A stretch of DNA of 64,000 nt from Candidatus Calidihabitans tengchongensis (lineage in GTDB: Bacteria; Sysuimicrobiota; Sysuimicrobiia; Sysuimicrobiales; Kaftiobacteriaceae): contig JAVKIE010000009.1 in the NCBI GenBank assembly GCA_031459615.1, positions 8,291-72,290 on the forward strand. Reading direction: 5' to 3'. Made by a program: the position numbers and the translations under genes. Within the stretch, counting starts at the first letter, position 1. The number at the start of each line of letters is the position of its first letter. Shown here one piece after another: positions 690-21,465 of this stretch. The notes beneath the pieces were generated by a model. The model saw only the letters and a program-made list of their open reading frames with translations. It ran no database searches and was not told the origin of the DNA.

Positions 690-2258
690 ATGTCTGAAGC
701 CCCGCGCTCGTCCGTCTGGCCCGGGTGGTGGCTTGCGGCAGCCGTGGCTGTCCTGGCGGCGGGCCTGAATCTCCCCCTCACAGACGGCGATACGGCGCTG
801 TACGCCACGGTCGCCCGGGACGCGCTGGCCCGCGGAGAGTGGGTCGCCTACACCTTCCGGGACGGGCGCGTCTTCGACAAGCCGCCGCTGACCCTCTGGC
901 TGCTGCAGGTTTCCATCGCCGCGTTCGGGACGGCGGAGTGGGCGGTGCGGTTGTGGCATCTGGCGCTGGCGCTGGCGACCGCCGGCGCGACCTACCGGCT
1001 GGCGCGCCTGGTCCTTCCGGTGCGGGAGTCGCTGCTGGCCGCGGTGGTCCTGCTGACCTCGGCGCAGTTCTTCTACCAGGCCCTGGTCCCCCAGCAGGAC
1101 GTGCCGCTGACGCTGTTCGTGGCCCTGGCGGTGTACGGCTACCTGCGCTGGGAGGCGGACGGGCGCGTGGTCTGGGCCGTCGTGGCGGGGGTGGCGGCCG
1201 GGCTGGCCGTCCTGTCCAAGGGGCTGGTGGGGGTGGTGCTGCCGGCTCTGGTCGCGGGGACGCGGCTGGTCGTGGACCGTCCGCGGCCTCCCGCCCGGTG
1301 GCCGGTGGCGCTGGCCGTCGCGGCCGCCGCGTGCCTGGCGGTGGCCGCCCCGTGGTTTGTGGCGGCCGGACTGCGCCAGGGCCGGGAGTTTGTGGAGACG
1401 TTCTTCGGGGGCGGGACTCTGGGCGTGGGCCGCTTCTTCCGTCCGGCCCTGTCCGCGCCGGGGTGGGTGCCGGCTGCGGCCGGGCTGTTCGCCTACGCGG
1501 TCTTCCTGCCGCTGGGCCTGCTGCCCTGGACGGGGTGGCTGTGGCCGGCGCTGCGGGAGGGCCTCCGCGCGCGCGATCGCGTGCTGCGGGTGTGCTTTCT
1601 GTGGGTTGTGGCGGTGCTGGTCTTTCTGTCGGTGTCGCCGGGAGACAAGGTCATCCGGTTCCTGCTGCCGGTCTTTCCGCCGGCGTCCGTGCTGCTCGCC
1701 TCCGTCGTGTCCGACCCTCGCAGGATCCGGGGGGCGTCGGCGGTCTCGCTGGCGGCAGGGGGCCTGCTGACGGCGGCCCTGGTGACGCTGGCGGCGGCCC
1801 CGCTGCCGGCCGAAGTGACGCCGTTCCGGCCGGTGGCAGCCGCCCTGCTGCTGCCGCTGGCCGGGGGGCTGGCGGTGTCCTCGCTCCTCCTGCGGACGAG
1901 AGCCGGCCGCTCCGCAGTCCCCGCGCTGGCCGCGGCGGCGCTTGCCGGCTACAGCCTTCTCCTGGTGGCGACGGCCCGCCAGTGGGACCGGATGTCCCCG
2001 TGGAGGCCGGTGGCCAGGATGGTGGAAGTGGCGGCCGCCGAGGACACCCACGTCCTCGTCGAAGGCGAGCCGACACCGTTCGCCTGGTTCTACATCCGGC
2101 GGCCGGTGCGCTTTGTCTCCCGCGACGGGCTGGCGGCCGAGTGGACGAGCGGGCGGGTCGTGGCCGTCATGCCCGTGGACATGGTGGCCGCCCTGCCCGG
2201 TCCTCCGGTGGTGGTGGGCGGCGCCCCGGGCGGGCTGGTGGTGGTCAAGAACTACTAG
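690..2258 (+). CDS. GT39/GT83-type polyprenyl-phosphate-sugar transferase (ArnT/PMT family), a polytopic membrane protein.
   Basis: The 522-aa product has many TM helices. Its N-terminal region has the DxD...KPPL signature (DGDTALY...DKPPLTLW) typical of ArnT/PMT glycosyltransferases. Confidence 0.75.
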   Translation: MSEAPRSSVWPGWWLAAAVAVLAAGLNLPLTDGDTALYATVARDALARGEWVAYTFRDGRVFDKPPLTLWLLQVSIAAFGTAEWAVRLWHLALALATAGATYRLARLVLPVRESLLAAVVLLTSAQFFYQALVPQQDVPLTLFVALAVYGYLRWEADGRVVWAVVAGVAAGLAVLSKGLVGVVLPALVAGTRLVVDRPRPPARWPVALAVAAAACLAVAAPWFVAAGLRQGREFVETFFGGGTLGVGRFFRPALSAPGWVPAAAGLFAYAVFLPLGLLPWTGWLWPALREGLRARDRVLRVCFLWVVAVLVFLSVSPGDKVIRFLLPVFPPASVLLASVVSDPRRIRGASAVSLAAGGLLTAALVTLAAAPLPAEVTPFRPVAAALLLPLAGGLAVSSLLLRTRAGRSAVPALAAAALAGYSLLLVATARQWDRMSPWRPVARMVEVAAAEDTHVLVEGEPTPFAWFYIRRPVRFVSRDGLAAEWTSGRVVAVMPVDMVAALPGPPVVVGGAPGGLVVVKNY

Positions 2259-4578
2259 GGGACGACGCCGCGGGCCGGGGCAGCAGGGCCAGCACCTCCG
2301 CCGCGATCTGACTGACGGCTCCGGGGGGCCCCATCCGCTGCCGTCCTGCCTCGCCTCTGCGGGCCCGCTCGGCGGGATTTCCCAGCAGGCGCAGGACGGC
2401 CTCCGCGGCTTCGTCCCAGGAGCCCACCGCCACCACCGCATCTCCCAGGATGCGCTGCTGCAGCCGCAGGAACGGGCGCGTGAACTGGGGGCCGGGACCC
2501 GGGAACGCCACCACGGGTTTGCCCAGTCCCGCCGCCTGCTCGTTGGCGGTTCCGGCCAGCCCGACCACCACATCAGCGACGCGCACGGCCGCGCCGAAGG
2601 CGCCCGTCAGGCGCACGGCCGCCTCCGAAGAGCGCAGCACGTCTCCGTCCGCCTGCCACCCGGCCCGCACGGCTGTCGCGTGCACGCGGTCCAGGTCCAG
2701 AGACGGCGCCAGCGCGCACACGAGGTTGACCCGCTCCGTCCGGCCCACCCGGCCCGCCAGGGCCAGCAGCAGCTCCAGGTTGCCGTAGGCCTCCTGGCGG
2801 CTTCCCGGCAGCAGGAGTACCGTCGGCAGGCGCGGGTCCAGGCGGGGGTCCGTGCCGTCGGGGCCGATGGTGTCCATCAGGGGGTTGCCCACATGGCGCG
2901 CCGGGACGCCCCGGGCCGCCAGGGCCGAAGCGGTGAGGGCATCCCGGGCGAACACGACCGCGGGCAGCCGGCGCATCAGCCGCAGCTCCAGCCACTGGTG
3001 AGGCTCGCCGTGCTCGGATTTGGCCGTGGCGATGTAGACCACCGGCCGGCCGGCGTGGGCGGCCATCCACAGGCAGTAGAAGTCCCCAATCGCCACCACC
3101 GCGTCGAACCGGCCGCGGCACGCCCGCAGGGTGCGCCGCTGCTGCCACCACAGGCGCAGGACGCCGGCGCGCAGGTCGGCCAGCAGGCCCGGCAGGTGGT
3201 TGCGGAATCCGAACCCCCCCGAGGGCAGCGCGCGCCGGGGGTCCAGGAGCGGGATGTCGCGGTAGGCCGTGCCCAGGCCGACCAGGGGAAAGGCCGCCAC
3301 ATCTGCCGCCGGGCGCAAGGCCTGCGCCAGGACCATCCCCACGGCGTCCTCCCCGTGGCCGTTGCTGACCACCAGGACCGACGGCCGGCCCGCCAGCGGG
3401 GCCGGATCCCCGGAGACCGGGGCAGGCTGGCGATGTTGTGAGAATGCCGCCTGCACGGCGACCAGCATCCAGAACCCTGCCGCCACGTTGACGGTCATGA
3501 TTGTCCCGTCGAACTGCTCCCTCACCAGCAGGCCCACAAACGCCGCCAGCACCGCGGCGGCGAGGATCCGCTCCTCCCGCGTGGCCGCCGCGCGGCGCCA
3601 CCGGTAGCCGGCTGCCAGGGCGCCAGCGATCACGGCGACCAACGCCGCCAGCCCCACCAGTCCCCCTTCGGCCGCCGCGTTGAGGATGATATTGTGGGCG
3701 AACGCGCGGGGTATTGCATCGACCACGACGTAGTCCGGGTGCACCATCCAGAAAGTGTTCATCCCCGTCCCCACCAGCGGGTGGTCACGAAAGATGGCGA
3801 GGGCCGCCCGGGCCAGGGCGAGGCGGTCCTCGTTGGCGGCCGGATTGAAGATGGTGGCTGCCCGCTGCACAATCCCCGGTCCAGCCGAGGGGAACAGCAC
3901 CACCCAGACGGCGGCGGCGGCTGCCAGCGACACCAGTGCCGGTGCCACCCACCGTCCCCGCACCATCACGAGCAGTGCGACCACTCCCGCCGCGGCGCCC
4001 ACCCAGGACCCCCGGGAGTACGTGAGGGCGAGGGCGAGGACAGAGGTCGCTCCGGTCGCGGCGGCCAGCAGGCGGACCGCCCCCGCAGACGTCATCGCCA
4101 GGCCCAGGCTGAGGACGCACGCGATCATCAGCGTCGTCCCCAGCGGGTTTACCGACAGGGCCGGCAGCTCGGCCCGGCCGGTCAGCGGGGTACTGGCAAG
4201 GGTCCACACCGCCGCCCCCAGGCCGCCGGCGACCCACGCCCGGACCAGCGCCACCCCCAGCGAGGGCCTACCGCGCAGGTTCCGGTAGAAGGGGGCAAAT
4301 CCCGCCCACAGCACCAGGGCCGACAGCACGGCGGACCCCGTGGCGGTGCCGCGGTAGGGGGACGCCACCCCCGCCAGCAGAAACGCGGCGACAAATGCCG
4401 CCAGGGGCAGGTCCAGCGGGCTCCGCTCCCAGGGGATCCGCCGCGTCGCCAGGCCTTCTACGATGCCGAACACCAGCAGGAGGAACAGGCCCGCGGCCGC
4501 GTAGCCGGAGCTGAAGACCAGGGCGGTGCCCAGGATCAGCAGGCGTGTGAGGCGCGTCCACCAGGTCTCCTGGTTCAC
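2245..4578 (-). CDS. Fusion protein: an N-terminal O-antigen ligase (Wzy_C/WaaL-like) polytopic domain joined to a C-terminal lipid-A-disaccharide-synthase-related (LpxB-like, TIGR03492-type) glycosyltransferase domain.
   Basis: The 777-aa product starts at a GTG at 4578, overlapping the upstream gene's stop (GTGA). The N-terminal roughly 390 aa are TM-rich with a WaaL-like loop. The C-terminal roughly 380 aa (PSVLVVSNGHGED...) resemble LpxB-related proteins. Confidence 0.7.
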   Translation of the reverse strand: MNQETWWTRLTRLLILGTALVFSSGYAAAGLFLLLVFGIVEGLATRRIPWERSPLDLPLAAFVAAFLLAGVASPYRGTATGSAVLSALVLWAGFAPFYRNLRGRPSLGVALVRAWVAGGLGAAVWTLASTPLTGRAELPALSVNPLGTTLMIACVLSLGLAMTSAGAVRLLAAATGATSVLALALTYSRGSWVGAAAGVVALLVMVRGRWVAPALVSLAAAAAVWVVLFPSAGPGIVQRAATIFNPAANEDRLALARAALAIFRDHPLVGTGMNTFWMVHPDYVVVDAIPRAFAHNIILNAAAEGGLVGLAALVAVIAGALAAGYRWRRAAATREERILAAAVLAAFVGLLVREQFDGTIMTVNVAAGFWMLVAVQAAFSQHRQPAPVSGDPAPLAGRPSVLVVSNGHGEDAVGMVLAQALRPAADVAAFPLVGLGTAYRDIPLLDPRRALPSGGFGFRNHLPGLLADLRAGVLRLWWQQRRTLRACRGRFDAVVAIGDFYCLWMAAHAGRPVVYIATAKSEHGEPHQWLELRLMRRLPAVVFARDALTASALAARGVPARHVGNPLMDTIGPDGTDPRLDPRLPTVLLLPGSRQEAYGNLELLLALAGRVGRTERVNLVCALAPSLDLDRVHATAVRAGWQADGDVLRSSEAAVRLTGAFGAAVRVADVVVGLAGTANEQAAGLGKPVVAFPGPGPQFTRPFLRLQQRILGDAVVAVGSWDEAAEAVLRLLGNPAERARRGEAGRQRMGPPGAVSQIAAEVLALLPRPAASSPSSS

Positions 4579-5471
4579 TCTTTGAGGGCTCCTTCCAGGG
4601 TGTACAGGTAGTGGCGGTTCAGCACGCCGCGCAGCGCCAGGTCCGCCAGACCTCCCAGGCGGTGCCGTCTTAAGGCCGACGTCACGGCCCGGATGTTTTC
4701 GCGGGTCGTCAAGCCTCCTGCGGTCTGGAGCCAGTACAGCAGGCGGTGCAGCCGCGTGGCCTGGATGAGGATGCGGGTCTGAAAGGTGGGGTGCTTGCGG
4801 TAGAAGTGCACCGCGCTGCGGGCTCGGTCCTCTTCCTTCGCCAGGAGGGCATCCACATCGACGGGTCGGGCGGCCGGCGCCAGGTGGAACGCGACGGCCT
4901 GACGGCAGAACACCCGCCGCAGCCCCAGCCGCTGCAGCCGGAGCCCCAGCTCAAAGTCCTCCCACCCGTAGCCGGGGAAGTCCTCGTCAAACAGGCCCGC
5001 CCGCAGCAGAGCCGCTTTCTCCACGGCGGCGTTGGCGGTGGTCAGAAACGCCGGCGAGGGAGGGACCCACCGCAGCCGGGAGCGCCGGGCGGTGGCCGCG
5101 TCGGGCACGTCGACCACCGGCCCGCGGGAGACGACCCCCGGGCCGCGGCGGCGGTGGACGTCCAGGTGACGGTCGAGGAAATCGGGGCGGACCACGATGT
5201 CGCTGTCGATCAGGACCACCAGCGGCGCCGCCGCCTCCCGGATGCCGGCGTTGCGGGCGGCGCTGCGGCCGCGGTTGGACGGCAGCCGCACGGCGCGCAC
5301 CCGGGGGCTGAACTCCCGCAGCACGGCCGCCGTGTGGTCGGTGGACCCGTCGTCCACCACGATGACCTCGTAGCGGTCTGTGGGCAGCGTCTGGTCTACT
5401 AGCGACCGCAGGCACTCCCGCAGCAGCTCGGCCTGGTTGTAGGTGGGGACGACGACGGTCAGGTCAGGCAT
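4575..5471 (-). CDS. Family 2 glycosyltransferase.
   Basis: N-terminal VVVPTYNQAELL...VIVVDDGSTD is the classic GT2 signature. There is an 8-nt overlap with the upstream ABC exporter gene. Confidence 0.8.
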   Translation of the reverse strand: MPDLTVVVPTYNQAELLRECLRSLVDQTLPTDRYEVIVVDDGSTDHTAAVLREFSPRVRAVRLPSNRGRSAARNAGIREAAAPLVVLIDSDIVVRPDFLDRHLDVHRRRGPGVVSRGPVVDVPDAATARRSRLRWVPPSPAFLTTANAAVEKAALLRAGLFDEDFPGYGWEDFELGLRLQRLGLRRVFCRQAVAFHLAPAARPVDVDALLAKEEDRARSAVHFYRKHPTFQTRILIQATRLHRLLYWLQTAGGLTTRENIRAVTSALRRHRLGGLADLALRGVLNRHYLYTLEGALKE

Positions 5472-7203
5472 CGGGGGACGAGCGCGGGGAAACGTCCACC
5501 AGCTGCAGGCCGGCCAGCCGGGCGTAGACTCCGCCCCGGCGCAGCAGGTCTTCGTGGCGGCCTTCCTCCACGATGCGCCCGGCCTCCAGGACGACGATCC
5601 GGTCGGCCTTGCGCACCGTGGACAGCCGGTGGGCGATGATGAACGTGGTGCGGCCCTGCATCAGGCGGTCCAGGGCTTCCTGGATCAGGCGCTCGGACTC
5701 GGCATCCAGGGCCGAGGTGGCCTCGTCCAGGATGATGATGCGCGGGTCGGCCAGCACCGCGCGGGCGATGGCCAGGCGCTGGCGCTGCCCGCCCGAGAGC
5801 TCGACCCCGCCTTCGCCGACCATCGTGTCGTAGCCCCGGGGCAGGGCCAGGATGAAATCGTGGGCGTTGGCCACCTTGGCGGCCGCCACCACCTCCTCCT
5901 CGGACGCGTCGGGGCGGGCATAGGCGATGTTGTCGCGCACGGTGCCGACGAACAGCACCGTCTCCTGGGGGACCAGCCCCACCTGCCGGCGCAGCGACCG
6001 CAAGGTGACCGTCCGCAGGTCCCGACCGTCGATCTCCACCACGCCCCGGGTGGGGTCATAGAAGCGGGGGATCAGGTTGACCAGGGTGGACTTGCCGGCG
6101 CCGCTGGACCCCACGATCGCCACCCGCTCCCCGGCCCGCACGTCCAGCGACACGCCCCGCAGGACCATGTGGGAGCCGTCGTAGCTGAACCACACGTCCT
6201 GCATCCGCACGTCGCCCCGCACCGGCGGCAGGTCCTTGGCCTTTGGCGCGTCGGCCACACCCTCGGGTACCCGCAGCACCTCCATCACCCGGTCCAGCGC
6301 TCCCAGCCCCTGGCGCATCCCGGCGTACAGCCGGGACAGGGCGATGGCCGGCTCCACGGCGATCCCCGCATAGGCCAGGAACGACACCAGCGTCCCCGCC
6401 GTGATGGCGCCGGCGGTCACCATCCGCCCGCCCAGCCACAGGACGCCCACCAGGCCCAGAGCGGTGAAGAAGCTGACCACCGGCACCTGCACGGCCGTCA
6501 ACTGGCTGACCCGCAGGTTCTCGCGGAAGGTGCGCTCGTTCTCCTGGACGAACCGCCCGACCTCCCGCTCCTCCTGGACGAAGGCGCGGATGACCCGCGC
6601 GCCGCCGAACGCCTGGCGCAGCAGCGACGCCAGCCCGGCGACCCGCTCCTGGGCCCGCACCGAGACCCGCTGGATCTCCTGACCGAACGCGCGCGCGCTG
6701 CCCAGCAACAGCGGGACCACCACCAGCGTGTACAGGGCCAGCCGCCACTGAAGGATGAACAGCATCGCCGCAATGCCGACCAGCGTAAGAGCCGTGCCGA
6801 TGAAGTCCAGCAGACCCACCAGCAGGGCATTCTGCACCACCTGAGTGTCCTGCAGGCTGCGGGCAATGAGATCCCCGCTGGTCCATCCCGTGAACCGGTC
6901 CAGGGACCAGCGCTGGACCTTCTGGAAGATCATCCGCCGCAGGTCGGCGATCACCCGGTGGCCCAGGTACAGGCCGAAGTACAGCTGGCCGTACAGGAAC
7001 AGGCTGCGCAGGGCGAACGCCCCCAGCATGACCAGGGCGGCCTCGTCCAGCACCGCCAGGCTGCGCGTCCGGACGATGGCGTCGATGGTCAGCCCCGCAT
7101 AGCGCGGCACGAACAGCTGGGCCGCCGTGAGCAGGACCACGCACAGCACGCCCGCGCCCAGGTGGGGCCAGTAGGGGGCGATAAGGCGCGCCAGGCGTCT
7201 CAT
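5464..7203 (-). CDS. ABC exporter of the MsbA/lipid-flippase type, with a fused transmembrane and ATPase domain.
   Basis: Six-TM N-terminal half. The C-terminal half has Walker [10 protein letters not shown], signature LSGGQRQR and Walker [13 protein letters not shown]. The start codon forms an ATGA overlap with the stop of the lpxB-like gene. Confidence 0.85.
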
Positions 7204-8564
7204 GGCCGCCTCTCCGATCCCGCCGCCAGGGACAGGGCGCAGGCAGCGACCCGGTCGGCCGCCCCGGCCTCCGCCGGGTACAGCCGCCGCAGGTCAGCGG
7301 TGATGGCCGCCCGGCGGTCCCGGTCGGCCAGGAGGTCGGCCACCCGGCGCGCCAGGTCGGCCGGGCTGAACCGGCCGACCCACTCGGGTACGACCGCGCG
7401 GACGGCCCGGATGTTGGGCAGGGCCACCAGCCGCGGCCGGCGGAAATACCACGCCGCCGCGGCTCGCTTGAAGAGCCTGCCGACCCCGGGCAGCCGGCTG
7501 GCCCACTCCAGCAGACCTTCGGCCGGCGCGCGGTCAATGAGGTCGAGCGGAACGATGACGGCAAACGGCACGCCGAGCAGGGCGAGCTCCATGGTGTTGG
7601 TGCCCGGGATGGTCAGGACCAGATCGCTGTGCCTCAGGCTCTGCCAGGGCTCGCCGGCGACCCACCGCACCGGCAGGTGAGGCCAGCCCTCGCGCACCCG
7701 CCGCTGCAGGGATGCGACCAGGGCCGGGGAGAGGAACGGGGAGGCGACCACCTGGAACGTCACCCCGGGGCGCAGGCCGGCCAGAGCATCCGCGGCCCGC
7801 AGGAAGAAGGGGACCAGCTCCCGGGCAAACCGGTCCCGGCTGCCCGGCAGGATGGAAACCACTTCGCTTTCCCGCTCGTGACCGAAATCGCCGGCGCGGC
7901 CCGCTTCCGCGTGCGCCGCATCGGCCATCTGCGTCGTCCACCCGTCTCGGAGAGTATCGTCCCCCCCACCCTTCGCCTTCTGACTCCCCTCTCCCCTCCG
8001 GTCCTGACTCCCCTCTCCCCTCCGGGGAGAGGGCGAGGGTGAGGGGGCATGCAGGACCCCAGTCAGGGCGTCCGCCCGGGGATCCCCCGTCACCACCACC
8101 TTGCCCGCGGGGACCCCCAGGCCCACCAGGCGGCGGGCCAGGTCCTCGGAGGTGGCGCAGATGGTCTCAAACGCCGCATGCCGACGGGCCACCAGCGGCG
8201 TCTCCACCAGCGCGCAGGCGGGAACACGCAGCCGGCGGGCCAGCCGCGCGGAGAACCACAGGTCCCCGCCCAGGTGGACCACGGTGGCCTGCGGCACGAT
8301 GTCCAGCGGCTTCAGCCCCAGGGCCACCCGCACCGCCTCCGCCGGTTCCAGGATCCGGTCAAACAGCCCCCAGCTCCGCGCCACCGCCGGCTCGCGCCCG
8401 CCCGCAAACTGGGTGGGCGACAGGACCAGTGTCACCCGCAGCCCCGGCGGGCCCGCGCGACGGGCGGCGTCCGCCACCGGACGGATCCACCCCGCCAGTT
8501 CGCCGGGGCCGTTGCCGGCGAGGATGAGGTCGACGATGTCGGGCAGCGCCGATCCGTGCGGCAT
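7200..8564 (-). CDS. Lipid-A-disaccharide synthase family (GT19, LpxB-like) glycosyltransferase with a low-complexity insertion.
   Basis: N-terminus IVDLILAGNGPGELAGWIRP and the overall length fit the LpxB family. It is the first gene of a four-gene minus-strand operon. Confidence 0.65.
   Translation of the reverse strand: MPHGSALPDIVDLILAGNGPGELAGWIRPVADAARRAGPPGLRVTLVLSPTQFAGGREPAVARSWGLFDRILEPAEAVRVALGLKPLDIVPQATVVHLGGDLWFSARLARRLRVPACALVETPLVARRHAAFETICATSEDLARRLVGLGVPAGKVVVTGDPRADALTGVLHAPSPSPSPRRGEGSQDRRGEGSQKAKGGGDDTLRDGWTTQMADAAHAEAGRAGDFGHERESEVVSILPGSRDRFARELVPFFLRAADALAGLRPGVTFQVVASPFLSPALVASLQRRVREGWPHLPVRWVAGEPWQSLRHSDLVLTIPGTNTMELALLGVPFAVIVPLDLIDRAPAEGLLEWASRLPGVGRLFKRAAAAWYFRRPRLVALPNIRAVRAVVPEWVGRFSPADLARRVADLLADRDRRAAITADLRRLYPAEAGAADRVAACALSLAAGSERRP
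7981..8028 (-). repeat. Perfect in-frame 2 x 24-bp tandem duplication inside the lpxB-like CDS. It encodes RRGEGSQD/RRGEGSQK and is followed by a complementary GA-rich segment at 8029-8048.
   Basis: tgactcccctctcccctccggtcc followed by tgactcccctctcccctccgggga is seen directly in the sequence. Confidence 0.8.
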
Positions 8565-8568
8565 GCTT

Positions 8569-8574
8569 CACGAT
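8569..8574 (-). promoter_or_regulatory. Perfect TATAAT -10 hexamer on the minus strand, 4 bp upstream of the lpxB-like ATG. This would give a leaderless or near-leaderless transcript.
   Basis: The plus strand reads attata, which reverse-complements to TATAAT. No convincing -35 element was found. Confidence 0.25.
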
Positions 8575-8646
8575 TATAGTGTCCCCCCCGGCACGGCGAA
8601 AGAACCGGAGGAGGGAGGGGAGGAGGGGAACCGAACCTGTCGCGAT

Positions 8647-10218
8647 GTGGGCAGACGAACGCCTTTCGCGGTGTGCGTGGTCCTGACGGGCGCTCTGCTG
8701 ATTTCCCCAGGCACCGTTGCACGGGCCTCCGAAGGAGGACACGGGGCCTGCGGGGGTGCCGCCGCGCGCCTGGAGGGTGGCCGCGTGGCGTCGCCGGCGG
8801 TGTCCCCGGACGAGCTGACCGTCGAGGCGGATCGGATCGTCTACGACGATGCCGCCCGGACGGTGGAGGCCGTGGGACGGGTTACCCTCGCCTACCGCGG
8901 GATTGGTGTGCGGGCCGATGTGGTCCGCGTGGACCTGGACGCCGGACGCGTGGAGGCCCGCGGGCACGTCATCATCCTGGACTCCCAGGGACGGGAGATG
9001 CGGGGAGATGTCCTCGTCTATGACGCCCGGCACGAGGCCGCCGAGCTGGCGCCGGCCGAGACGATCGTCAGCGGCGTGTACGTGCGCGCCGCGCAGGTGC
9101 GGGCCACCCGCGAGCGCATCGAGGCCACCGACGCGACCCTCACCACCTGCCATCCCGCCGCGCCTCCCTACCGCGTCACCGCCCAGCGCCTGGAGGTCAT
9201 TCCCGACGACCGCGTGACGGCGTACGGGGCCACCTTGTGGGCGGGCCGCCACTGGCTCCTCGGCCTGCCGGTGCTGGTGGTGTCCCTGCGCAGCCCCCAG
9301 GAGACCGCGGGGAGCTTTCCGAGCGTCGGATACAACAACGTCGACGGGCTGTGGGCGGCCTACAGGTACGCCTTTCCCACGGGCACGCCGCGCGCTGATG
9401 TGTCCGCCGCCCTGGGGACCCTGGCCCAGCGGGTCGAAGGCGGCCTGAGCCTCTCCCCGCAGCCGCTGGCGGGATCATTCCTGTGGTCGGCCGCCGTCCG
9501 CTACGGGTGGCACCGGGAGCAGGGGACAGGCGTCGAGACGACCAGGTTGCGCTATGAGGCGGGCGTGCACCTTCCCCCTGTGGCGTTGGGCCCGACGACC
9601 GAGGCGAGGGCAGCCTGGACCTGGCGGCAGGCCACCTACGCCACCGGCGACCGCCTGGAGACGGCGGTGGCGGACGTGGCGGTCACCCACCGCCTGGGAC
9701 CGCAGGCGCTGCTGTCTTTGACCCACGCCCAACTGCGCCCGGCGGGAACGACGCCGCTGGCCGTGGATGTCGTCAATCCCGCGGACATCGTCGACCGCGT
9801 GACACTGGCCTATGAGACATCCGGCCTGCGGGACGGCACCGTGGCCACCAGGTTTTCCGCCTCGGCCTCCTATGACTTTCTCACGGAGACCCCGTCGGTC
9901 GGCGTGTCCTACGGTGAGCGGATCCCGGGCGCCTACCACTGGACGGTGGGTCCGGCCTACAATCTCACCACCCGCGCGACCACCCTGCGGGCCGACGTCG
10001 GATGGGCCCTGGGGACCGACGCCTACGTCACCGTTCGGGGGACATACAATACGACCACGGCGCTGTTCGAGGACCTGGATTATATCCTCACGGCGCAGGT
10101 CGAGGGCTGTTTTGAGCTCTCGGTCGAGTACCGCCAGGTCCGCCAGGAGCTGTGGGTCTCCCTGGGCCTGGCGGCGTTTCCCCAGGCTCAGATGCAGTTT
10201 CAGTTCCGGGGTCCCTGA
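8647..10218 (+). CDS. LptD/OstA-like protein with an OstA_N beta-jellyroll and a C-terminal beta-rich domain, carrying a signal peptide.
   Basis: The GTG start gives MGRRTPFAVCVVLTGALLISPGTVARA-SEGG, a signal peptide. The OstA-like segment ADRIVYDD...TLTTCHPAAPPYRVTAQRLEVIPDD matches LptD. The SD is weak, with the GGAGG run about 18 nt upstream. Confidence 0.55.
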   Translation: MGRRTPFAVCVVLTGALLISPGTVARASEGGHGACGGAAARLEGGRVASPAVSPDELTVEADRIVYDDAARTVEAVGRVTLAYRGIGVRADVVRVDLDAGRVEARGHVIILDSQGREMRGDVLVYDARHEAAELAPAETIVSGVYVRAAQVRATRERIEATDATLTTCHPAAPPYRVTAQRLEVIPDDRVTAYGATLWAGRHWLLGLPVLVVSLRSPQETAGSFPSVGYNNVDGLWAAYRYAFPTGTPRADVSAALGTLAQRVEGGLSLSPQPLAGSFLWSAAVRYGWHREQGTGVETTRLRYEAGVHLPPVALGPTTEARAAWTWRQATYATGDRLETAVADVAVTHRLGPQALLSLTHAQLRPAGTTPLAVDVVNPADIVDRVTLAYETSGLRDGTVATRFSASASYDFLTETPSVGVSYGERIPGAYHWTVGPAYNLTTRATTLRADVGWALGTDAYVTVRGTYNTTTALFEDLDYILTAQVEGCFELSVEYRQVRQELWVSLGLAAFPQAQMQFQFRGP

Positions 10219-10238
10219 CGATCTTGAGTCGTGGAGTT

Positions 10239-10283
10239 GATTGAGTAGATTGAGCCGATTGCGCAGATTGCGTAGATTGAATG
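10239..10283 (+). repeat. Five tandem copies of a 9-bp unit, GATTG(A/C)(G/A)(T/C)N, ending at the phosphomannomutase start codon.
   Basis: gattgagta gattgagcc gattgcgca gattgcgta gattgaatg. It is a relatively AT-rich patch in a 70% GC window. Confidence 0.8.
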
Positions 10284-11674
10284 TGGTGACCATCTCCCCG
10301 ACGATCTTCCGCGAATACGACATCCGCGGTGTGGCCGGGCGCGACATCACCCCCGAGGTCGCCGAGGCCATTGCCCGGGCGTATGCGTCCTACCTGCGCA
10401 CAGAGGGGGCACAGGAGCGCGAGACTCCGGTCCTGGTGGGCAGGGACAACCGCGAGAGCTCTCCGTGGATCCGCGACGCCGTGGTGCGCGGCCTGGTGGG
10501 AAGCGGATGCCGCGTGGTGGACATCGGCACGGTGATCACCCCGGTCTTCTACTTCGCCCGGGTGCACTACGGCATCGACGGCGGGGTGATGGTCACCGCC
10601 AGCCACAACCCGCCCGAGTTCAACGGCTTCAAGCTGGCCCACGGATTCGGCACCCTGTACGGCGAGCAGATCCAGCAGATCCGCCGGCTGACGGAGGCGG
10701 GGGAGTTTGTCGGGGGGGTCGGGTCCGTGGAGGCCCGCGACGTGATCCCCGCGTACCGGGCGATGCTCCGGGAAAAGGTCCGCCTGGGTCCGCGGCGGCT
10801 GCGGGTGGTGGTGGACTGCGGTAACGGCACCGCCAGCCTGGTGGCCCCCGACGCTCTGGAGGACCTGGGGGTGGAGGTCGTCCGCCTGTACTGCGAGTCC
10901 GACCCGCGCTTTCCCCACCACCACCCCGACCCGGTGCAGCCGGAGAACCTGCGCGACCTGATCGCCGCCGTGCGCCGCGAGGGCGCCGACGTGGGCTTCG
11001 GCTTTGACGGCGACGGGGACCGGCTGGGGGTGGTGGACGACCGGGGCGAGATCGTCTGGGGCGACATCCTGATGATCCTGTTCTGGCGGGAGATCCTGCC
11101 CCGCCACCCCGGGACGGTGGGGATCGTGGAGGTCAAGTGCTCCCAGGCGCTGTACGACGAGATCCAGCGCCTGGGCGGCCGGCCCATGTTCTACCGCACC
11201 GGCCACTCCCTCATCAAGGCCAAGATGCGCGAGGTGGGCGCCGTCTTCACCGGCGAGATGTCGGGCCACATGTTCTTCGCCGACGAGTACTACGGCTACG
11301 ACGACGCCGTCTACGCGGCGGCCCGGCTGCTGCGGATCCTCTCCCACACCGACCGGCCCCTGTCGGCGCTGCTGGCCGACGTGCCCCGCTACCCGGCCAC
11401 CCCCGAGGTCCGCGTGGACTGCCCCGACGAGGTGAAGTTCGAAGTCGTCCGCTCCCTCACCGAGCAGTTCAAGCGGGAGGGCTACCCGGTGATTGACGTG
11501 GACGGGGCCCGGGTGCTGTGTGCGGACGGGTGGGGCCTGGTGCGGGCCAGCAACACCCAGCCGGTCCTGGTCCTGCGGGCGGAGGCCCGGACGCCGGAGG
11601 GCCTGGAGAGGATCAAGCGCACCCTGGAGCAGGCGCTGTCCCGTTTCGCCGACGTCGGTCCCGTGCGCTGGTGA
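10283..11674 (+). CDS. Phosphomannomutase/phosphoglucomutase (alpha-D-phosphohexomutase family).
   Basis: TIFREYDIRGV, the active-site loop TASHNPPEFNGFK and the metal loop FGFDGDGDRLG are all present. The start could instead be TTG 10241 with a GGAG SD, which would make the repeats coding. Confidence 0.8.
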   Translation: MVTISPTIFREYDIRGVAGRDITPEVAEAIARAYASYLRTEGAQERETPVLVGRDNRESSPWIRDAVVRGLVGSGCRVVDIGTVITPVFYFARVHYGIDGGVMVTASHNPPEFNGFKLAHGFGTLYGEQIQQIRRLTEAGEFVGGVGSVEARDVIPAYRAMLREKVRLGPRRLRVVVDCGNGTASLVAPDALEDLGVEVVRLYCESDPRFPHHHPDPVQPENLRDLIAAVRREGADVGFGFDGDGDRLGVVDDRGEIVWGDILMILFWREILPRHPGTVGIVEVKCSQALYDEIQRLGGRPMFYRTGHSLIKAKMREVGAVFTGEMSGHMFFADEYYGYDDAVYAAARLLRILSHTDRPLSALLADVPRYPATPEVRVDCPDEVKFEVVRSLTEQFKREGYPVIDVDGARVLCADGWGLVRASNTQPVLVLRAEARTPEGLERIKRTLEQALSRFADVGPVRW

Positions 11675-11863
11675 CGGCCGGTCCGTCCGCCGGACGACGC
11701 GTGGGCGCCCCGGGCACTCCCGCGATCCGGTCCCGCCGCCTCACCCGGCACGCTGCTCAGGCGGCGGCCGCGGTGCCGCACCGGGCGGGGACCTGACGAC
11801 GCGGGGATGGACCTGGGTAGGCAGACAGGCCTGGAGGGCGGCCCGGGAGAATTTCTCACACCC

Positions 11864-12889
11864 GTGAAGGCCATCATCCCCGCCGCCGGGATGGGGACGC
11901 GGCTGCGGCCCCACACCTTCACCCAGCCCAAGGCCCTGCTGCCGGTGGCCGGGCGGCCGATCCTGGCCCACATCGTGGACGAGCTGTCCGCCTGCGGCGT
12001 CGACGAGGTCATCCTGGTGCTGGGCTACCTGGGCGAGCGGGTGATCGACTTCGCCCGCAGGCGCTATCCGCACCTGACCGTGCGCGCCGTCTGGCAGGAG
12101 CAGCCCCTGGGCAACGGCCACGCCGTCTACGTGGCCCGGGAGTACCTGGACGGCACGCCGGCGGTCATCATCTTCGGCGACACCATCGTCAAGGGCGACC
12201 TGGCCGCCCTGGTGCGCGGCCCGCACTCCCTGGCCGGGGTGAAGGAGGTGGCCGACCCCCGGCGGCTGGGGGTGGTGGAAGTGGACCGGGAGGGCTTGAT
12301 CCGGCGCATCGTGGAAAAGCCGGAGGTGCCGCCCAGCCGCCTGGCGGTGATCGGCGTCTACTACATCACCGACACCCTGGCCCTGCGCGAGGCGCTGGAG
12401 CGGCTGGTGGCCGAAGACCGCCGCCAGCGGGGGGAGTTCTGGCTGGCCGACGGGCTGCAGCTGATGCTGGACCGGGGGGTGCCGATGCGGCCGTTTGCGG
12501 TCGAGCGTTGGTACGACTGCGGGACCGTGGAGGCGTGGCTGCAGGCCAACCGGGACCTGCTGGCGCTGGACCCCCCGCCGGTCCCGGAGGGGCTGGGCGG
12601 GACGGTGATCCCCCCCTCCTACGTCAGTTCCTCGGCGACCCTCGAGGGGTCGGTGGTGGGCCCCCATGCGTGCGTGGGGGATGAGGTCCGGGTGGTGCAC
12701 TCCACGGTCCGGGACTCGATCCTCCTGCCGCGGGCGGTCGTGGAAGACGCCCACCTGACCGCCTCGGTGGTGGGCGAGGGCGCGGCGGTGCGCGGGGTGC
12801 GGGGACGGGTCAACATCGGCGATGCCTCGCGCGTGGAGGGCGCGTCTGGAGAGGCCGGCGGCGCGGGCAGAGACCCGATGCCGCCATGA
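11864..12889 (+). CDS. Sugar-1-phosphate nucleotidyltransferase with a C-terminal left-handed beta-helix (mannose-1-P guanylyltransferase / RmlA-GlmU-like).
   Basis: The GTG start gives VKAIIPAAGMGTRLRP, the NTP-transferase signature. Confidence 0.75.
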   Translation: MKAIIPAAGMGTRLRPHTFTQPKALLPVAGRPILAHIVDELSACGVDEVILVLGYLGERVIDFARRRYPHLTVRAVWQEQPLGNGHAVYVAREYLDGTPAVIIFGDTIVKGDLAALVRGPHSLAGVKEVADPRRLGVVEVDREGLIRRIVEKPEVPPSRLAVIGVYYITDTLALREALERLVAEDRRQRGEFWLADGLQLMLDRGVPMRPFAVERWYDCGTVEAWLQANRDLLALDPPPVPEGLGGTVIPPSYVSSSATLEGSVVGPHACVGDEVRVVHSTVRDSILLPRAVVEDAHLTASVVGEGAAVRGVRGRVNIGDASRVEGASGEAGGAGRDPMPP

Positions 12890-13821: not shown

Positions 13822-13846
13822 CGGGGCGGGGGGTGGCCGGTACAAT
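13818..13846 (+). promoter_or_regulatory. Sigma-70-like promoter for rplM-rpsI: TTGACG, a 17-nt spacer, then TACAAT.
   Basis: ttgacg gggcggggggtggccgg tacaat, located 32 nt upstream of the rplM GTG. Confidence 0.5.
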
Positions 13847-13877
13847 GGTCCCCGCCGTGTCACGCAGCGCTGCACCT

Positions 13878-21459: not shown

Positions 21460-21465
21460 CGCCCG

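What the first reader, a model, noticed from the sequence alone, without database searches (positions are those of the whole stretch)
690..10218. Self-contained outer-envelope glycolipid assembly locus with two LpxB-family paralogs and no lpxA/C/D
The block contains, all overlapping in one minus-strand operon: a GT39 ArnT/PMT-like transferase; a divergent operon of an LpxB-family GT19 protein, an MsbA-like flippase, a GT2 transferase and an O-antigen-ligase::LpxB-related fusion; and an LptD/OstA-like secreted protein. Downstream are phosphomannomutase and sugar-1-P nucleotidyltransferase genes for donor supply. The window lacks the acyltransferases and deacetylase that make lipid A. The rest of the window looks Gram-positive-like (cdaA-cdaR-glmM, a glmS ribozyme, LysM-NlpC/P60 hydrolases). 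Together this points to either a diderm member of an otherwise monoderm lineage or a non-canonical lipid-A-independent glycolipid pathway built on GT19 paralogs.
Basis: partly seen in the sequence, partly recalled or inferred. Interest (0 to 1): 0.65.

Follow-up and report, generated by a model that had tools for sequence, protein, structure and literature searches.

The report
Lipopolysaccharide assembly locus, candidate phylum CSP1-3
This is a real, strongly conserved gene cluster of an uncultivated high-GC bacterium (candidate phylum CSP1-3/Sysuimicrobiota) that most likely finishes, flips and exports a lipopolysaccharide-type outer-membrane glycolipid; it uses two uncharacterised LpxB-related glycosyltransferases and a shortened LptD, and it is not good evidence for a lipid-A-free pathway.

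Summary
The ArnT-like GT-C gene is on the + strand, convergent with the operon. The glmS ribozyme is not confirmed. The window is from an 'Armatimonadota bacterium' MAG whose relatives are CSP1-3/Sysuimicrobiota. The core arrangement PGM <- LptD-like <-|-> LpxB-like, ABC exporter, GT2, (Wzy_C), TIGR03492 recurs in about 20 diverged genomes. The secreted protein is a true LptD homologue, with an OstA jellyroll, a conserved Cys pair and a barrel of only about 18 strands. Neither GT19-like protein is an orthodox LpxB. However, orthologues of both, and of the ABC exporter, sit inside canonical lipid A clusters in other lineages (lpxC-fabZ-lpxA-lpxI-lpxB-[LpxB-like]-[ABC]-[TIGR03492]-lptB-lptFG). 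The module therefore belongs to the LPS pathway, downstream of LpxB. The most likely reading is a late-stage LPS locus covering core glycosylation, flipping, ligation and outer-membrane insertion, with lpxA/C/D/B elsewhere in the genome. I could not test that last point. A lipid-A-independent glycolipid remains possible (about 0.15). The interest lies in the two unnamed or uncharacterised GT19-like families, which may replace LpxK/WaaA, and in the Wzy_C::TIGR03492 fusion.

The parts
690..2258 (+). GT-C glycosyltransferase, ArnT-like (PMT_2), 522 aa, multi-pass membrane protein. It is convergent with the operon and overlaps the operon's last gene by 14 nt.
   Evidence: GC3 0.92. Pfam PMT_2 75.5 bits, PMT 41.8 bits. 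ArnT equivalog NF009784 scores 107.7 bits against a cut-off of 567. Best PDB match is ArnT 5ezm, E=1.3e-23. It is conserved next to the cluster in L005, L007, L008, L017, L031 and L032.
2245..3393 (-). C-terminal domain of the fusion protein (about aa 396-777): a TIGR03492 'lipid-A-disaccharide synthase-related' GT-B glycosyltransferase, inferred to be cytoplasmic.
   Evidence: TIGR03492 scores 315.7 bits against a cut-off of 219.2, over aa 402-764. It is a separate gene in most relatives. There is no significant PDB sequence match. hhalign against the LpxB-like family gives 98%.
3394..4578 (-). N-terminal domain of the fusion protein (about aa 1-395): a Wzy_C / O-antigen-ligase-family polytopic membrane domain.
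   Evidence: Pfam Wzy_C 68.8 bits, GA 31.7. Weak IctB-family hit. Arg189 of the 'SRG' motif is invariant, and the 'AHN...EGG' loop motif is in the family consensus (and read directly from the sequence). The domain is fused to TIGR03492 in the window species, in P0002, in P0003 and in L017. It is a separate gene or absent elsewhere.
4575..5471 (-). GT2 (GT-A) glycosyltransferase, 298 aa, with no predicted transmembrane segment.
   Evidence: Pfam Glycos_transf_2 118 bits. The hydropathy scan finds no TM segment. Orthologues with 54-68% identity occupy the same position in all relatives.
5464..7203 (-). ABCB-type half-transporter (6 TM + NBD), 579 aa; the proposed MsbA-type lipid-linked glycan flippase.
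   Evidence: ABC_membrane + ABC_tran. TIGR02204 MsbA_rel 507 bits and TIGR02203 MsbA 478 bits, both below their cut-offs. PDB matches: TM288 380, Sav1866 373, MsbA 340-366 bits. It is the most conserved gene of the cluster, at 65-94% identity. Orthologues (41-48% identity) lie between lpxB and lptB in canonical clusters.
7200..8564 (-). LpxB-like GT-B glycosyltransferase, 454 aa, first gene of the operon. It belongs to an unnamed GT19-like family distinct from LpxB and from TIGR03492. Aa ~172-230 form a species-specific disordered insert.
   Evidence: TIGR00215 scores 39.8 bits against a cut-off of 190. The family profile hits E. coli LpxB at E=6e-15, but only the C-terminal half. The AF2 model has pLDDT 87 and a GT-B fold. 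A CSP1-3-only HMM hits the gene next to canonical lpxB over its full length (191-272 bits), whereas canonical LpxB scores 58-72 bits.
8565..8646 (.). 82-bp divergent intergenic region between the LpxB-like operon and the lptD-like gene. It presumably carries both promoters.
   Evidence: Coordinates and sequence. The divergent arrangement is conserved in every CSP1-3-type locus that holds both genes.
8647..10218 (+). Short LptD homologue, 523 aa: signal peptide, OstA/LptA-type beta-jellyroll (aa ~58-213) and a beta-barrel of about 18 strands (aa ~226-508). Cys168 and Cys488 are invariant.
   Evidence: The family profile hits LptD 8h1r at E=1.3e-9 and LptA at about 1e-4. The AF2 model has pLDDT 81.7. 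The top 15 Foldseek hits are all full-length LptD, E=1e-17 to 6e-13. Invariant residues are listed.
10241..11674 (+). Phosphoglucomutase/phosphomannomutase (PgmG-like), immediately downstream of the lptD-like gene.
   Evidence: All four PGM_PMM domains. NF046027 PgmG 508.8 bits. Orthologues with 64-87% identity occupy the same position in all CSP1-3-type loci.
11807..12889 (+). Sugar-1-phosphate nucleotidyltransferase (RmlA-long/GlmU-like N-terminal domain), the probable supplier of NDP-sugar donors.
   Evidence: NTP_transferase 105 bits. TIGR01208 187.8 bits, below its cut-off. Homologues with 60-73% identity lie near the cluster in L016, L017, L026 and L027. A homologue with 44-47% identity lies between lpxC and fabZ in L054 and L060.

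Best explanation
The block is the late-stage lipopolysaccharide (LPS-type glycolipid) assembly and export locus of a diderm bacterium of candidate phylum CSP1-3/Sysuimicrobiota.

Proposed order of events:
1. On the cytoplasmic face of the inner membrane, a lipid A-type anchor, made by Raetz-pathway genes located elsewhere in the genome, is glycosylated by the LpxB-like GT-B enzyme, the GT2 enzyme and the TIGR03492 GT-B domain. The NDP-sugars come from the adjacent PGM and nucleotidyltransferase.
2. The MsbA-type ABCB exporter flips the product.
3. On the periplasmic face, the Wzy_C (WaaL-family) domain, here fused to TIGR03492, ligates or extends a polyprenol-linked glycan. The ArnT-like GT-C adds a sugar from a polyprenyl-phosphate donor.
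4. An Lpt bridge delivers the molecule to the short LptD, which inserts it into the outer leaflet.

Shown here: the identity of the families, the operon structure, the conserved synteny, and the embedding of the orthologous LpxB-like/ABC/TIGR03492 trio between lpxB and lptB in other lineages.

Inferred: the substrate, the order of the steps, the sidedness of each step, and the presence of lpxA/C/D/B elsewhere in this genome.

A further inference is that the two GT19-like enzymes start a Kdo-independent inner core, occupying the place of LpxK/WaaA.
For: 1. The LptD homologue is real. Profile match to LptD 8h1r E=1.3e-9; AF2 pLDDT 81.7 with jellyroll plus barrel; the top 15 fold hits are all LptD; Cys168 and Cys488 are invariant, and Cys168 aligns with the conserved N-terminal-domain Cys of solved LptD.
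2. The divergent pair lptD-like | LpxB-like-ABC-GT2-(Wzy_C)-TIGR03492, with PGM downstream of lptD, is conserved in about 20 non-redundant loci, down to 31% LptD identity.
3. In L052-L054, L059, L060, L062 and L067 the order is lpxC-fabZ-lpxA-lpxI-lpxB-[LpxB-like]-[ABC]-[TIGR03492]-(GT2)-lptB-lptFG. LpxC, LpxA, LpxB, TIGR03492 and LptB all score above NCBIfam cut-offs. L077 has lpxD-lpxC/fabZ-lpxA-lpxB-TIGR03492-Wzy_C-lptB-lptFG.
4. HMMs built only from CSP1-3 sequences recognise those neighbours over their full length (LpxB-like 191-272 bits; TIGR03492 296-358 bits). Canonical LpxB in the same loci scores 38-72 bits, over the C-terminal half only.
5. The window ABC is 41-48% identical to the ABC inside those clusters.
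6. The Wzy_C::TIGR03492 fusion occurs in four lineages. LpxB-like, ArnT-like, ABC, TIGR03492 and Wzy_C also co-occur in low-GC lineages.
7. Armatimonadetes, used as the outgroup closest to CSP1-3, carry lpxA-D (PMC5007114).
Against: - In this phylum the module is never physically linked to early lipid A genes.
- The genome of this MAG could not be searched.
- The LptD barrel has about 18 strands rather than 26, so its cargo could differ.
- LptD homologues exist in LPS-free Borrelia (bioRxiv 10.1101/2022.12.21.521298).
- The ABC exporter is no closer to MsbA than to Sav1866 or TM288 and is below the MsbA equivalog cut-off.
- No member of the LpxB-like or TIGR03492 family has a known activity. 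Two literature searches found nothing.
Confidence: 0.65

Rival explanations
1. Lipid-A-independent outer-membrane glycolipid. CSP1-3 would have lost the Raetz pathway. The LpxB-like and TIGR03492 enzymes would then build a glycolipid on another lipid, such as diacylglycerol. That glycolipid would be flipped by the ABC exporter, decorated, and inserted by a reduced LptD.
For:
- The N-terminal (acceptor) domain of the LpxB-like protein is not alignable with LpxB.
- The LptD barrel is reduced to about 18 strands.
- An LptD homologue works in LPS-free Borrelia.
- A Gemmatimonadota MAG carries TIGR03492, LpxB-like, ABC and GT2 next to Wza without an adjacent lptD.
Against: - Orthologues of all three core genes lie between canonical lpxB and lptB in at least six lineages.
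- Strong purifying selection on six LPS-associated genes would be odd after loss of lipid A.
- The neighbouring phylum Armatimonadetes has lpxA-D.
- The sampled DNA is only a small fraction of the genomes.
- The apparent loss of the lipid A-binding basic ring in the ABC exporter is equally seen in ABCs inside canonical clusters, so it is not diagnostic.
Confidence: 0.15
2. The 454-aa LpxB-like protein is itself the lineage's strongly diverged lipid A disaccharide synthase. On this reading the locus holds lpxB-msbA-core GT-waaL as in classical LPS clusters, and only lpxA/C/D are elsewhere.
For: - It is the first gene of the operon, directly upstream of the MsbA-type ABC.
- LpxB is its best PDB sequence match (E=6e-15 for the family profile).
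- All 38 family members scanned hit TIGR00215.
- No orthodox LpxB was seen in any CSP1-3 locus.
Against: - In other lineages the orthologous family sits next to an orthodox LpxB in the same operon (284 bits on TIGR00215 in L067). It is therefore a separate function there.
- Scores on TIGR00215 are 40-55 bits against a cut-off of 190. A control LpxB scores 345 bits.
- The N-terminal acceptor domain does not align with LpxB.
Confidence: 0.1
3. The operon makes an exopolysaccharide or capsule, or glycosylates proteins, and is unrelated to outer-membrane lipid. On this reading its position next to lptD is coincidental.
For: - GT2, Wzy_C, PMT_2 and ABC exporters are all common in polysaccharide loci.
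- Wza, Wzc and Wzi genes flank the cluster in L007 and L028, and a Wzi-like gene lies about 7 kb beyond the window start.
Against: - The lptD-like gene is the divergent neighbour in every CSP1-3-type locus, down to 31% identity.
- The orthologous trio is inserted between lpxB and lptB in other lineages.
- Wzy_C is the dispensable part of the cluster; it is absent in L008, L016, L023 and L026.
Confidence: 0.05

Closest known systems
Late LPS pathway of Proteobacteria (core glycosyltransferases, MsbA, WaaL, ArnT, LptD/E)
   Same: The same logic and the same families: cytoplasmic GTs, an ABCB flippase, a Wzy_C-family ligase, an ArnT-like GT-C and an LptD with an OstA jellyroll.
   Different: No WaaA, LpxK or heptosyltransferases were seen; two GT19-like GT-Bs stand in their place. 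The ligase is fused to a GT-B. The LptD barrel has about 18 strands rather than 26, and no LptE is known in Terrabacteria (10.1101/2021.05.31.446380). All the genes sit in one divergent locus.
The 'diderm' LPS/OM gene cluster of Negativicutes and Halanaerobiales (Antunes et al. 2016, PMC5007114)
   Same: A Terrabacteria-type LPS cluster with lpxC-fabZ-lpxA-lpxI-lpxB, an MsbA-like ABC, lptB and a single lptF/G. The metagenomic loci L054-L067, which contain orthologues of the window's genes, have this layout.
   Different: Diderm Firmicutes carry lpxK/waaM/waaA/kdsABCD. The L054-L067 clusters show the LpxB-like and TIGR03492 genes there instead, with no LpxK, WaaA or Kds within ±10 kb. The CSP1-3 locus has lost physical linkage to the lpx and lptBFG genes and has gained lptD.
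LpxB, lipid A disaccharide synthase (GT19; TIGR00215, PF02684; PDB 5w8s)
   Same: GT-B fold, and a homologous C-terminal nucleotide-sugar domain carrying the LPGSR, GT(A/N)xE and LPN motifs.
   Different: Neither window protein reaches the equivalog cut-off (39.8 bits and no hit, against 190). The N-terminal acceptor domains are not alignable. The LpxB-like family coexists with orthodox LpxB in the same operon in other lineages.
TIGR03492 'lipid-A-disaccharide synthase-related protein' (NCBIfam hypothetical equivalog, function unknown)
   Same: The C-terminal half of the 777-aa protein is a member (315.7 bits against a cut-off of 219.2). The family is widespread: more than 600 pattern matches and 497 confirmed relatives in the metagenome scan.
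   Different: Here it is fused to a Wzy_C membrane domain; it is a stand-alone gene in most genomes. No paper in the searched library mentions the family.
LptD of E. coli and relatives (26-strand barrel plugged by LptE), and the divergent LptD of Veillonella parvula (PMC5491611)
   Same: A signal peptide, an N-terminal OstA jellyroll, a C-terminal barrel, and a conserved Cys after the jellyroll that aligns with the conserved Cys of solved LptD and with recalled E. coli C173. As in Veillonella, the gene is hard to recognise with standard models; the Pfam LptD hit is only E=0.008.
   Different: About 520 aa and about 18 strands. It lies next to glycolipid synthesis genes, whereas in Veillonella lptD is outside the LPS cluster.
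Borrelia burgdorferi LptD homologue (bioRxiv 10.1101/2022.12.21.521298)
   Same: It shows that an LptD-family protein can serve a cargo other than LPS. This is the precedent for the lipid-A-free rival explanation.
   Different: Borrelia lacks LPS genes altogether. Here the LptD homologue is coupled to MsbA-like, WaaL-like, ArnT-like and GT19-like genes.

Membership tests
LpxB (GT19, TIGR00215 equivalog), tested on the 454-aa protein | Score at or above the curated equivalog cut-off (190.25 bits) over the full length | tested here: not met
   39.8 bits, covering aa 226-337 only. The best of 38 family members reaches E=4.5e-15. Control LpxBs P0103 and L067 score 345 and 284 bits.
LpxB (GT19), tested on the 454-aa protein | GT-B fold with an LpxB-type C-terminal UDP-sugar domain | tested here: met
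LpxB (GT19), tested on the 454-aa protein | It is the single-copy disaccharide synthase of the lipid A operon | tested here: not met
   Its orthologues lie immediately downstream of an orthodox lpxB in L053, L054, L059, L060, L062 and L067.
LpxB (GT19), tested on the 454-aa protein | Catalyses UDP-2,3-diacyl-GlcN + lipid X -> disaccharide-1-phosphate | not testable with these tools
   This needs an enzyme assay.
TIGR03492 (LpxB-related protein), tested on aa ~396-777 of the fusion | Score above the curated cut-off (219.2 bits) over the full model | tested here: met
   315.7 bits, model positions 1-394 of 396.
LptD, tested on the 523-aa protein | N-terminal OstA/LptA-type beta-jellyroll behind a signal peptide | tested here: met
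   Signal peptide MGRRTPFAVCVVLTGALLISPGTVARA. The profile matches the LptD 8h1r jellyroll and junction at E=1.3e-9, and LptA at 1.8e-4. Strands span aa 58-213.
LptD, tested on the 523-aa protein | C-terminal 26-strand beta-barrel | tested here: inconclusive
   A barrel is present, and the top 15 Foldseek hits are LptD. However, DSSP shows only about 18 strands, and TM-scores are 0.33-0.45.
LptD, tested on the 523-aa protein | Conserved Cys residues for the inter-domain disulfide (E. coli C173 with C725; residue numbers recalled from memory) | tested here: met
   Cys168 and Cys488 are invariant in 34 sequences. The equivalence of the C-terminal Cys rests on motif resemblance seen by eye only.
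LptD, tested on the 523-aa protein | Works with LptE, and with LptA/C and LptB2FG | not tested
   No lptA/B/C/E/F/G gene occurs in the window or in any CSP1-3 locus.
MsbA (TIGR02203 equivalog), tested on the 579-aa ABC | Score above the cut-off (602 bits) | tested here: not met
   477.6 bits. It is equally close to Sav1866 and TM288. The ABC inside the canonical cluster of L067 is also below the cut-off, at 540.7 bits.
MsbA, tested on the 579-aa ABC | Gene neighbourhood with lipid A and Lpt genes | tested here: inconclusive
   Orthologues with 41-48% identity lie between lpxB and lptB in other lineages. In CSP1-3 the gene is next to lptD but not next to lpx genes.
MsbA, tested on the 579-aa ABC | Basic ring R78/R148/R296/K299 that binds the lipid A phosphoglucosamines (PMC8660845) | tested here: not met
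   Only R78 is kept: R148->G, R296->E, K299->I/V. The feature is not diagnostic, because ABCs inside canonical lipid A clusters also lack it.
WaaL / O-antigen ligase family (Pfam Wzy_C), tested on aa 1-395 of the fusion | Pfam gathering score, plus the conserved Arg and the periplasmic-loop His motif | tested here: met
   68.8 bits against GA 31.7. Arg189 is invariant, and 'FAHN...EGG' is in the family consensus. Ligase versus polymerase activity cannot be told from sequence.
ArnT (NF009784 equivalog), tested on the 522-aa GT-C | Score above the cut-off (567 bits) | tested here: not met
   107.7 bits. It is a member of the broader PMT_2 GT-C family (75.5 bits against 26.1). The best PDB match is ArnT.
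Canonical Raetz pathway in this organism | lpxA, lpxC, lpxD, lpxH/I/G, lpxB, lpxK and waaA present in the genome | not testable with these tools
   All are absent from the 64 kb window and from all CSP1-3-type loci fetched.

The most novel reading that the evidence does not exclude
CSP1-3 bacteria have an outer membrane whose outer-leaflet glycolipid is not lipid A. Two LpxB-derived glycosyltransferases (the unnamed LpxB-like family and TIGR03492) would build a glycolipid on a different lipid. That glycolipid would be flipped by an MsbA-type exporter and inserted by an 18-strand LptD without LptE. This would be an Lpt pathway retooled for a non-lipid-A cargo in a free-living phylum. A milder version, which I rate at about 0.4, is that these two families are the long-missing Kdo- and LpxK-independent inner-core initiators of LPS in Terrabacteria.
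Probability: 0.15. Interest if true: 0.8.

Novelty: new variant of a known kind. Interest (0 to 1): 0.45.

Why it matters
No paper found in the searched library discusses the cell envelope of CSP1-3/Sysuimicrobiota, a widespread uncultivated phylum of soils and hot springs. The two phylum papers do not mention outer membrane, LPS or Gram type. This locus gives direct genetic evidence that the phylum is diderm and exports an LPS-type lipid.

More generally, the analysis picks out a recurrent trio: the LpxB-like family, an MsbA-type ABC exporter and TIGR03492. In several lineages the trio sits exactly where lpxK/waaA are found in classical clusters. Neither GT19-like family has a known activity, and one has no family model at all.

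If these enzymes start a Kdo-independent core on lipid A, that would explain how some Terrabacteria build LPS without WaaA. It would also give a testable handle on LPS diversity and on how the diderm envelope evolved. The short LptD, which has no known lipoprotein partner, also bears on how LPS translocons worked before LptE.

Tried and rejected
1. MsbA basic-ring argument. The CSP1-3 ABC keeps only R78 of R78/R148/R296/K299, which at first seemed to argue against a lipid A cargo. I dropped the argument because ABCs inside canonical lipid A clusters lack the same residues.

2. Whole-genome test for lpxA/C/D. The single genome-contig scan, run with the LpxB-like alignment, returned 15 loci but not the window's own MAG. 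Canonical LpxB hits P0103 and P0105 turned out to come from unrelated lineages. A look-up of a gene at the window's far end found nothing.

3. Literature. No paper mentions TIGR03492 or 'lipid-A-disaccharide synthase-related'. The Sysuimicrobiota supplements held as text contain no lpx gene names or KO numbers, and no accession of this MAG. The Nat Rev Microbiol Terrabacteria review is not held.

5. P0020, a 621-aa 'long' LpxB-like protein, looked like a possible fusion. Its N-terminal 200 aa look like an over-extended ORF rather than a domain.

They behaved as expected on positive controls (L029, L067, L110). Negative results with them are nonetheless backed by real sequences taken from L029, L067 and L110.

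Full report
**What is in the sequence**

The window has 73% G+C, so raw ORF lists are full of shadow frames. A third-position GC filter leaves one clear gene map:
- 690-2258(+): a 522-aa polytopic GT-C protein.
- Four tightly coupled genes on the minus strand: 7200-8564 (454 aa), 5464-7203 (579 aa), 4575-5471 (298 aa) and 2245-4578 (777 aa). Their start/stop overlaps are 4, 8 and 4 nt.
- On the plus strand, a secreted protein ending at 10218, followed by 10241-11674 and 11807-12889.

Pfam and NCBIfam identify these as follows:
- An ArnT-like PMT_2 glycosyltransferase.
- An LpxB-related GT-B protein (Pfam LpxB 28.9 bits; TIGR00215 39.8 bits against a cut-off of 190).
- An ABCB-type exporter (MsbA-related models 478-507 bits, below their cut-offs).
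- A GT2 enzyme.
- A fusion of a Wzy_C/O-antigen-ligase membrane domain with a TIGR03492 'lipid-A-disaccharide synthase-related' domain (315.7 bits against a cut-off of 219.2).
- A phosphogluco/phosphomannomutase and a sugar-1-phosphate nucleotidyltransferase.

Four details need correction:
- The GT-C gene is on the plus strand and converges on the operon, with a 14-nt overlap.
- The 8101-10218 ORF is over-long. GTG 8647 gives a typical signal peptide and matches the N-termini of homologues.
- The two 'LpxB paralogs' share no BLASTP similarity.
- No Rfam family reaches its threshold in the window. Upstream of glmS there is only a 15-bit partial glmS ribozyme match.

The rest of the window holds rplM-rpsI, two LysM-NlpC/P60 genes, cdaA-cdaR-glmM-wecG/tagA, glmS, acpS, and sugar uptake and catabolism genes. 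No lipid A gene was found.

**Whose genome it is**

The fusion protein is 99% identical to a protein of NCBI MAGs labelled 'Armatimonadota bacterium'. The window is the reverse complement of part of contig JAVKKM010000008.1 of GCA_031458495.1.

Relatives of the LpxB-like protein carry names such as 'Candidatus Segetimicrobium genomatis / Terrabacteria bacterium ANGP1', 'Cyanobacteria bacterium 13_1_20CM', 'Elusimicrobia bacterium RBG_16_66_12' and 'Armatimonadetes bacterium RBG_19FT_COMBO_69_19'. To my knowledge this set of labels corresponds to candidate phylum CSP1-3, recently named Sysuimicrobiota. That phylum branches within the Terrabacteria next to Armatimonadota (PMC11604079). The assignment rests on those names, not on a phylogeny made here.

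Neither of the two phylum papers mentions outer membrane, LPS, Gram type or diderm/monoderm. Armatimonadetes were reported to carry the four core lipid A genes (PMC5007114).

**Conservation**

Gene neighbourhoods were recovered by exact-protein look-ups, by a scan of species-representative genomes and by a metagenome scan. I compared them by tblastn and by HMMs built from CSP1-3 sequences.

Every CSP1-3-type locus long enough to show it has the same divergent arrangement: PGM <- LptD-like <-|-> LpxB-like, ABC, GT2, (Wzy_C), (second GT2), TIGR03492. That is about 20 non-redundant loci, with LptD-like identity falling to 31%. The ArnT-like gene often converges on the end of the operon.

The ABC exporter is the most conserved component (65-94% identity). 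PGM follows at 64-87%. Wzy_C is dispensable, being absent in L008, L016, L023 and L026. It is fused to TIGR03492 in four lineages: the window species, P0002, P0003 and L017.

Wza, Wzc and Wzi genes, which are outer-membrane capsule export components, flank the cluster in L007. A Wzi-like gene lies about 7 kb beyond the window start.

**The secreted protein is a short LptD**

- A profile of 34 homologues matches solved LptD (8h1r) at E=1.3e-9, across the jellyroll and the jellyroll-barrel junction. It matches LptA structures at about 1e-4.
- The AlphaFold model (pLDDT 81.7) shows a jellyroll at aa ~58-213 and a barrel of about 18 strands at aa ~226-508.
- The 15 best Foldseek matches in the PDB are all full-length LptD, with E=1e-17 to 6e-13.
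- Two cysteines are invariant. Cys168 aligns with the conserved Cys of solved LptD 8h1r. Cys488 lies in a 'C-[FY]-x-[IL]-x-V-x-Y' motif that resembles, by eye, the motif around E. coli Cys724/725.
- An exhaustive HMMER search found 76 representatives at E<=1e-30 and 1495 at E<=1e-10. These mix 450-530-aa proteins with 630-815-aa proteins that match only the jellyroll and junction. Some are labelled LptD/OstA by JGI.

LptD is known to be divergent and hard to find in Terrabacteria (PMC5007114; PMC5491611). Lpt in Terrabacteria is thought to lack lipoprotein partners. A small, unplugged barrel therefore fits the clade.

**The two GT19-like proteins**

The 454-aa protein belongs to a family of roughly 400-aa proteins. 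Of these, 93 clusters were found, almost all unnamed or called 'hypothetical'.
- The family profile hits E. coli LpxB at E=6e-15, but only over LpxB residues 169-381, the nucleotide-sugar domain.
- All 38 members scanned hit TIGR00215, but far below its cut-off. A control LpxB scores 345 bits.

The TIGR03492 domain has no significant PDB sequence match. It is related to the LpxB-like family at profile level, in the C-terminal domain (98%, E=2.4e-13).

So both proteins are GT19-like, neither is an orthodox LpxB, and they represent two different families.

**The decisive context**

The metagenome scan with the TIGR03492 alignment found more than 600 pattern matches, of which 497 were confirmed relatives.

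In at least six lineages unrelated to CSP1-3 (GC 38-56%; loci L052-L054, L059, L060, L062, L067) the gene order is: ABC-ATPase, lpxC, fabZ, lpxA, lpxI, lpxB, [LpxB-like], [ABC exporter], [TIGR03492], (GT2), lptB, lptF/G.

In L067 the following all exceed their curated cut-offs:
- LpxC: 213 against 187.
- LpxA: 348 against 226.
- LpxB: 284 against 190.
- TIGR03492: 296 against 219.
- LptB: 364 against 240.

An LptF/G protein, a DUF3084 protein and an SLH-domain protein follow.

HMMs built only from CSP1-3 sequences recognise the gene next to lpxB over its full length (191-272 bits). The orthodox LpxB in the same loci gets 58-72 bits, in its C-terminal half only.

L077 shows bamA, lpxD, lpxC/fabZ, lpxA, lpxB, TIGR03492, Wzy_C, lptB, lptFG.

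No LpxK, WaaA, KdsA or KdsB homologue lies within ±10 kb of these clusters. By contrast, diderm Firmicutes carry lpxK/waaM/waaA/kdsABCD at that place.

Low-GC lineages (L064, L070, L074) combine LpxB-like, ArnT-like, an ArnC/PgfS-like GT2, ABC, TIGR03492 and Wzy_C. A Gemmatimonadota MAG has TIGR03492, GT2, LpxB-like, ABC and GT2 next to Wza.

The trio LpxB-like / ABC / TIGR03492 is therefore a recurrent module that is physically part of bona fide lipid A-LPS clusters. The LpxB-like protein is an additional enzyme acting beside LpxB, not a substitute for it.

**Mechanism proposed**

What is shown: the family identities, translational coupling of the four-gene operon, the conserved divergent pairing with lptD, the linkage of PGM and the nucleotidyltransferase, and the module's embedding between lpxB and lptB in other lineages.

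What is inferred:
1. A lipid A-type anchor is glycosylated on the cytoplasmic face by the LpxB-like, GT2 and TIGR03492 enzymes. They use NDP-sugars supplied by the neighbouring PGM and nucleotidyltransferase. A homologue of that nucleotidyltransferase, 44-47% identical, even sits between lpxC and fabZ in L054 and L060.
2. The ABCB exporter flips the product.
3. The Wzy_C domain ligates or extends a polyprenol-linked glycan on the periplasmic side. Its C-terminus, and hence the fused GT-B domain, should be cytoplasmic if it has the WaaL topology.
4. The ArnT-like GT-C adds a sugar from a polyprenyl-phosphate donor.
5. The short LptD inserts the molecule into the outer leaflet.

Because the module stands where lpxK/waaA stand in classical clusters, I suggest that the two LpxB-derived enzymes begin a Kdo-independent inner core on the lipid A disaccharide. 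This is a hypothesis based on synteny alone.

**What remains open**

I could not examine the rest of this genome. In this phylum the module has been uncoupled from those genes, or the genes are absent.

The lipid-A-free reading therefore cannot be excluded, and an LPS-free bacterium with an LptD homologue exists (Borrelia). I give that reading 0.15. My reasons are the module's context elsewhere, the strong purifying selection on six LPS-associated genes, and the presence of lpxA-D in the neighbouring phylum.

An argument from missing lipid A-binding arginines in the ABC exporter was withdrawn after a control showed the same pattern in exporters inside canonical clusters.

**Novelty and interest**

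Read this way, the locus is a variant of a known kind of system, LPS assembly and export, in a phylum whose envelope is not described in the papers I could search.

What is new or unexplained:
- A GT19-like family with no family model.
- Its partnership with TIGR03492 and an MsbA-type exporter across phyla, apparently in the place of LpxK/WaaA.
- The Wzy_C::TIGR03492 fusion.
- An 18-strand LptD encoded head-to-head with the synthesis operon.

These make a worthwhile, testable lead for LPS biochemists and for work on envelope evolution in Terrabacteria. The evidence does not support the more dramatic claim of a self-contained, lipid-A-independent pathway. I score the interest at 0.45.

Noticed in passing
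window 22541-22607 (+), upstream of glmS (22729-24648): There is only a partial, sub-threshold match to the glmS ribozyme: 15.1 bits, E=0.37, model positions 89-157 of 167, against a gathering score of 37. It is on the right strand and in the right place. It could be a diverged or degenerate ribozyme; the catalytic 5' half was not detected.
   Followed up: partly
window ~7875-8051 (-), aa ~172-230 of the LpxB-like protein: A species-specific low-complexity insert (PSPSPSPRRGEGSQDRRGEGSQKAKGGGDD...) lies between the two Rossmann domains. It is predicted disordered (pLDDT below 50). It is absent from the roughly 400-aa homologues, and it contains a short tandem duplication (RRGEGSQ x2).
   Followed up: partly
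window 8647-8784 (+): The public annotation starts the LptD-like gene at 8785 (477 aa), which removes the signal peptide. GTG 8647 gives a 523-aa precursor with a typical signal peptide, and homologues align through this region.
   Followed up: yes
L001 19373-20716 (about 7 kb beyond the window start); L007 7201-11805: A Wzi-like gene lies near the cluster in this species. A full Wzc-Wzi-Wza capsule export set lies directly next to the ArnT-like gene in a relative. This is independent evidence for an outer membrane and for a Wzy-dependent polysaccharide that the Wzy_C domain might handle.
   Followed up: partly
L054 ~1556-2600 and L060 ~2262-3300: In lineages with canonical lipid A clusters, a homologue of the window's sugar-1-phosphate nucleotidyltransferase (11807-12889), 44-47% identical, sits between lpxC and fabZ. 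No LpxD was detected in those loci.
   Followed up: no
window 5464-7203 (-) and its orthologues: The ABC exporter is far more conserved across CSP1-3 (65-94% identity) than its operon partners (LpxB-like 37-71%, LptD-like 31-60%). An invariant Glu replaces E. coli MsbA Arg296.
   Followed up: partly
P0186 (688 aa, from the exhaustive search): This LptD-like relative carries an extra N-terminal region of about 190 aa. By eye it resembles an AMIN-type domain of the kind found in PilQ or AmiC. I did not check this with a domain search.
   Followed up: no
L028 (Gemmatimonadota MAG) 6176-13907: A distant variant of the module: TIGR03492, DUF2334, a GT2 with a Glyco_transf_21 match, a 283-aa protein, LpxB-like, ABC and GT2. 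A Wza gene lies 3 kb downstream, and there is no adjacent LptD-like gene.
   Followed up: partly
window 18573-22272 (+): cdaA, cdaR (YbbR) and glmM are followed directly by a WecG/TagA-family (GT26) glycosyltransferase, as if in one operon. Rather than standing apart, rplM-rpsI lie at about 13.9-14.9 kb, between the two LysM-NlpC/P60 genes.
   Followed up: no
L074 2834-12313 (GC 31%, unidentified lineage): This low-GC locus carries LpxB-like, a CehA/McbA-type metallohydrolase, ArnT-like, an ArnC/PgfS-like polyprenyl-phosphate glycosyltransferase, ABC, TIGR03492 and Wzy_C in one stretch. The same gene set therefore recurs at very different base composition.
   Followed up: partly
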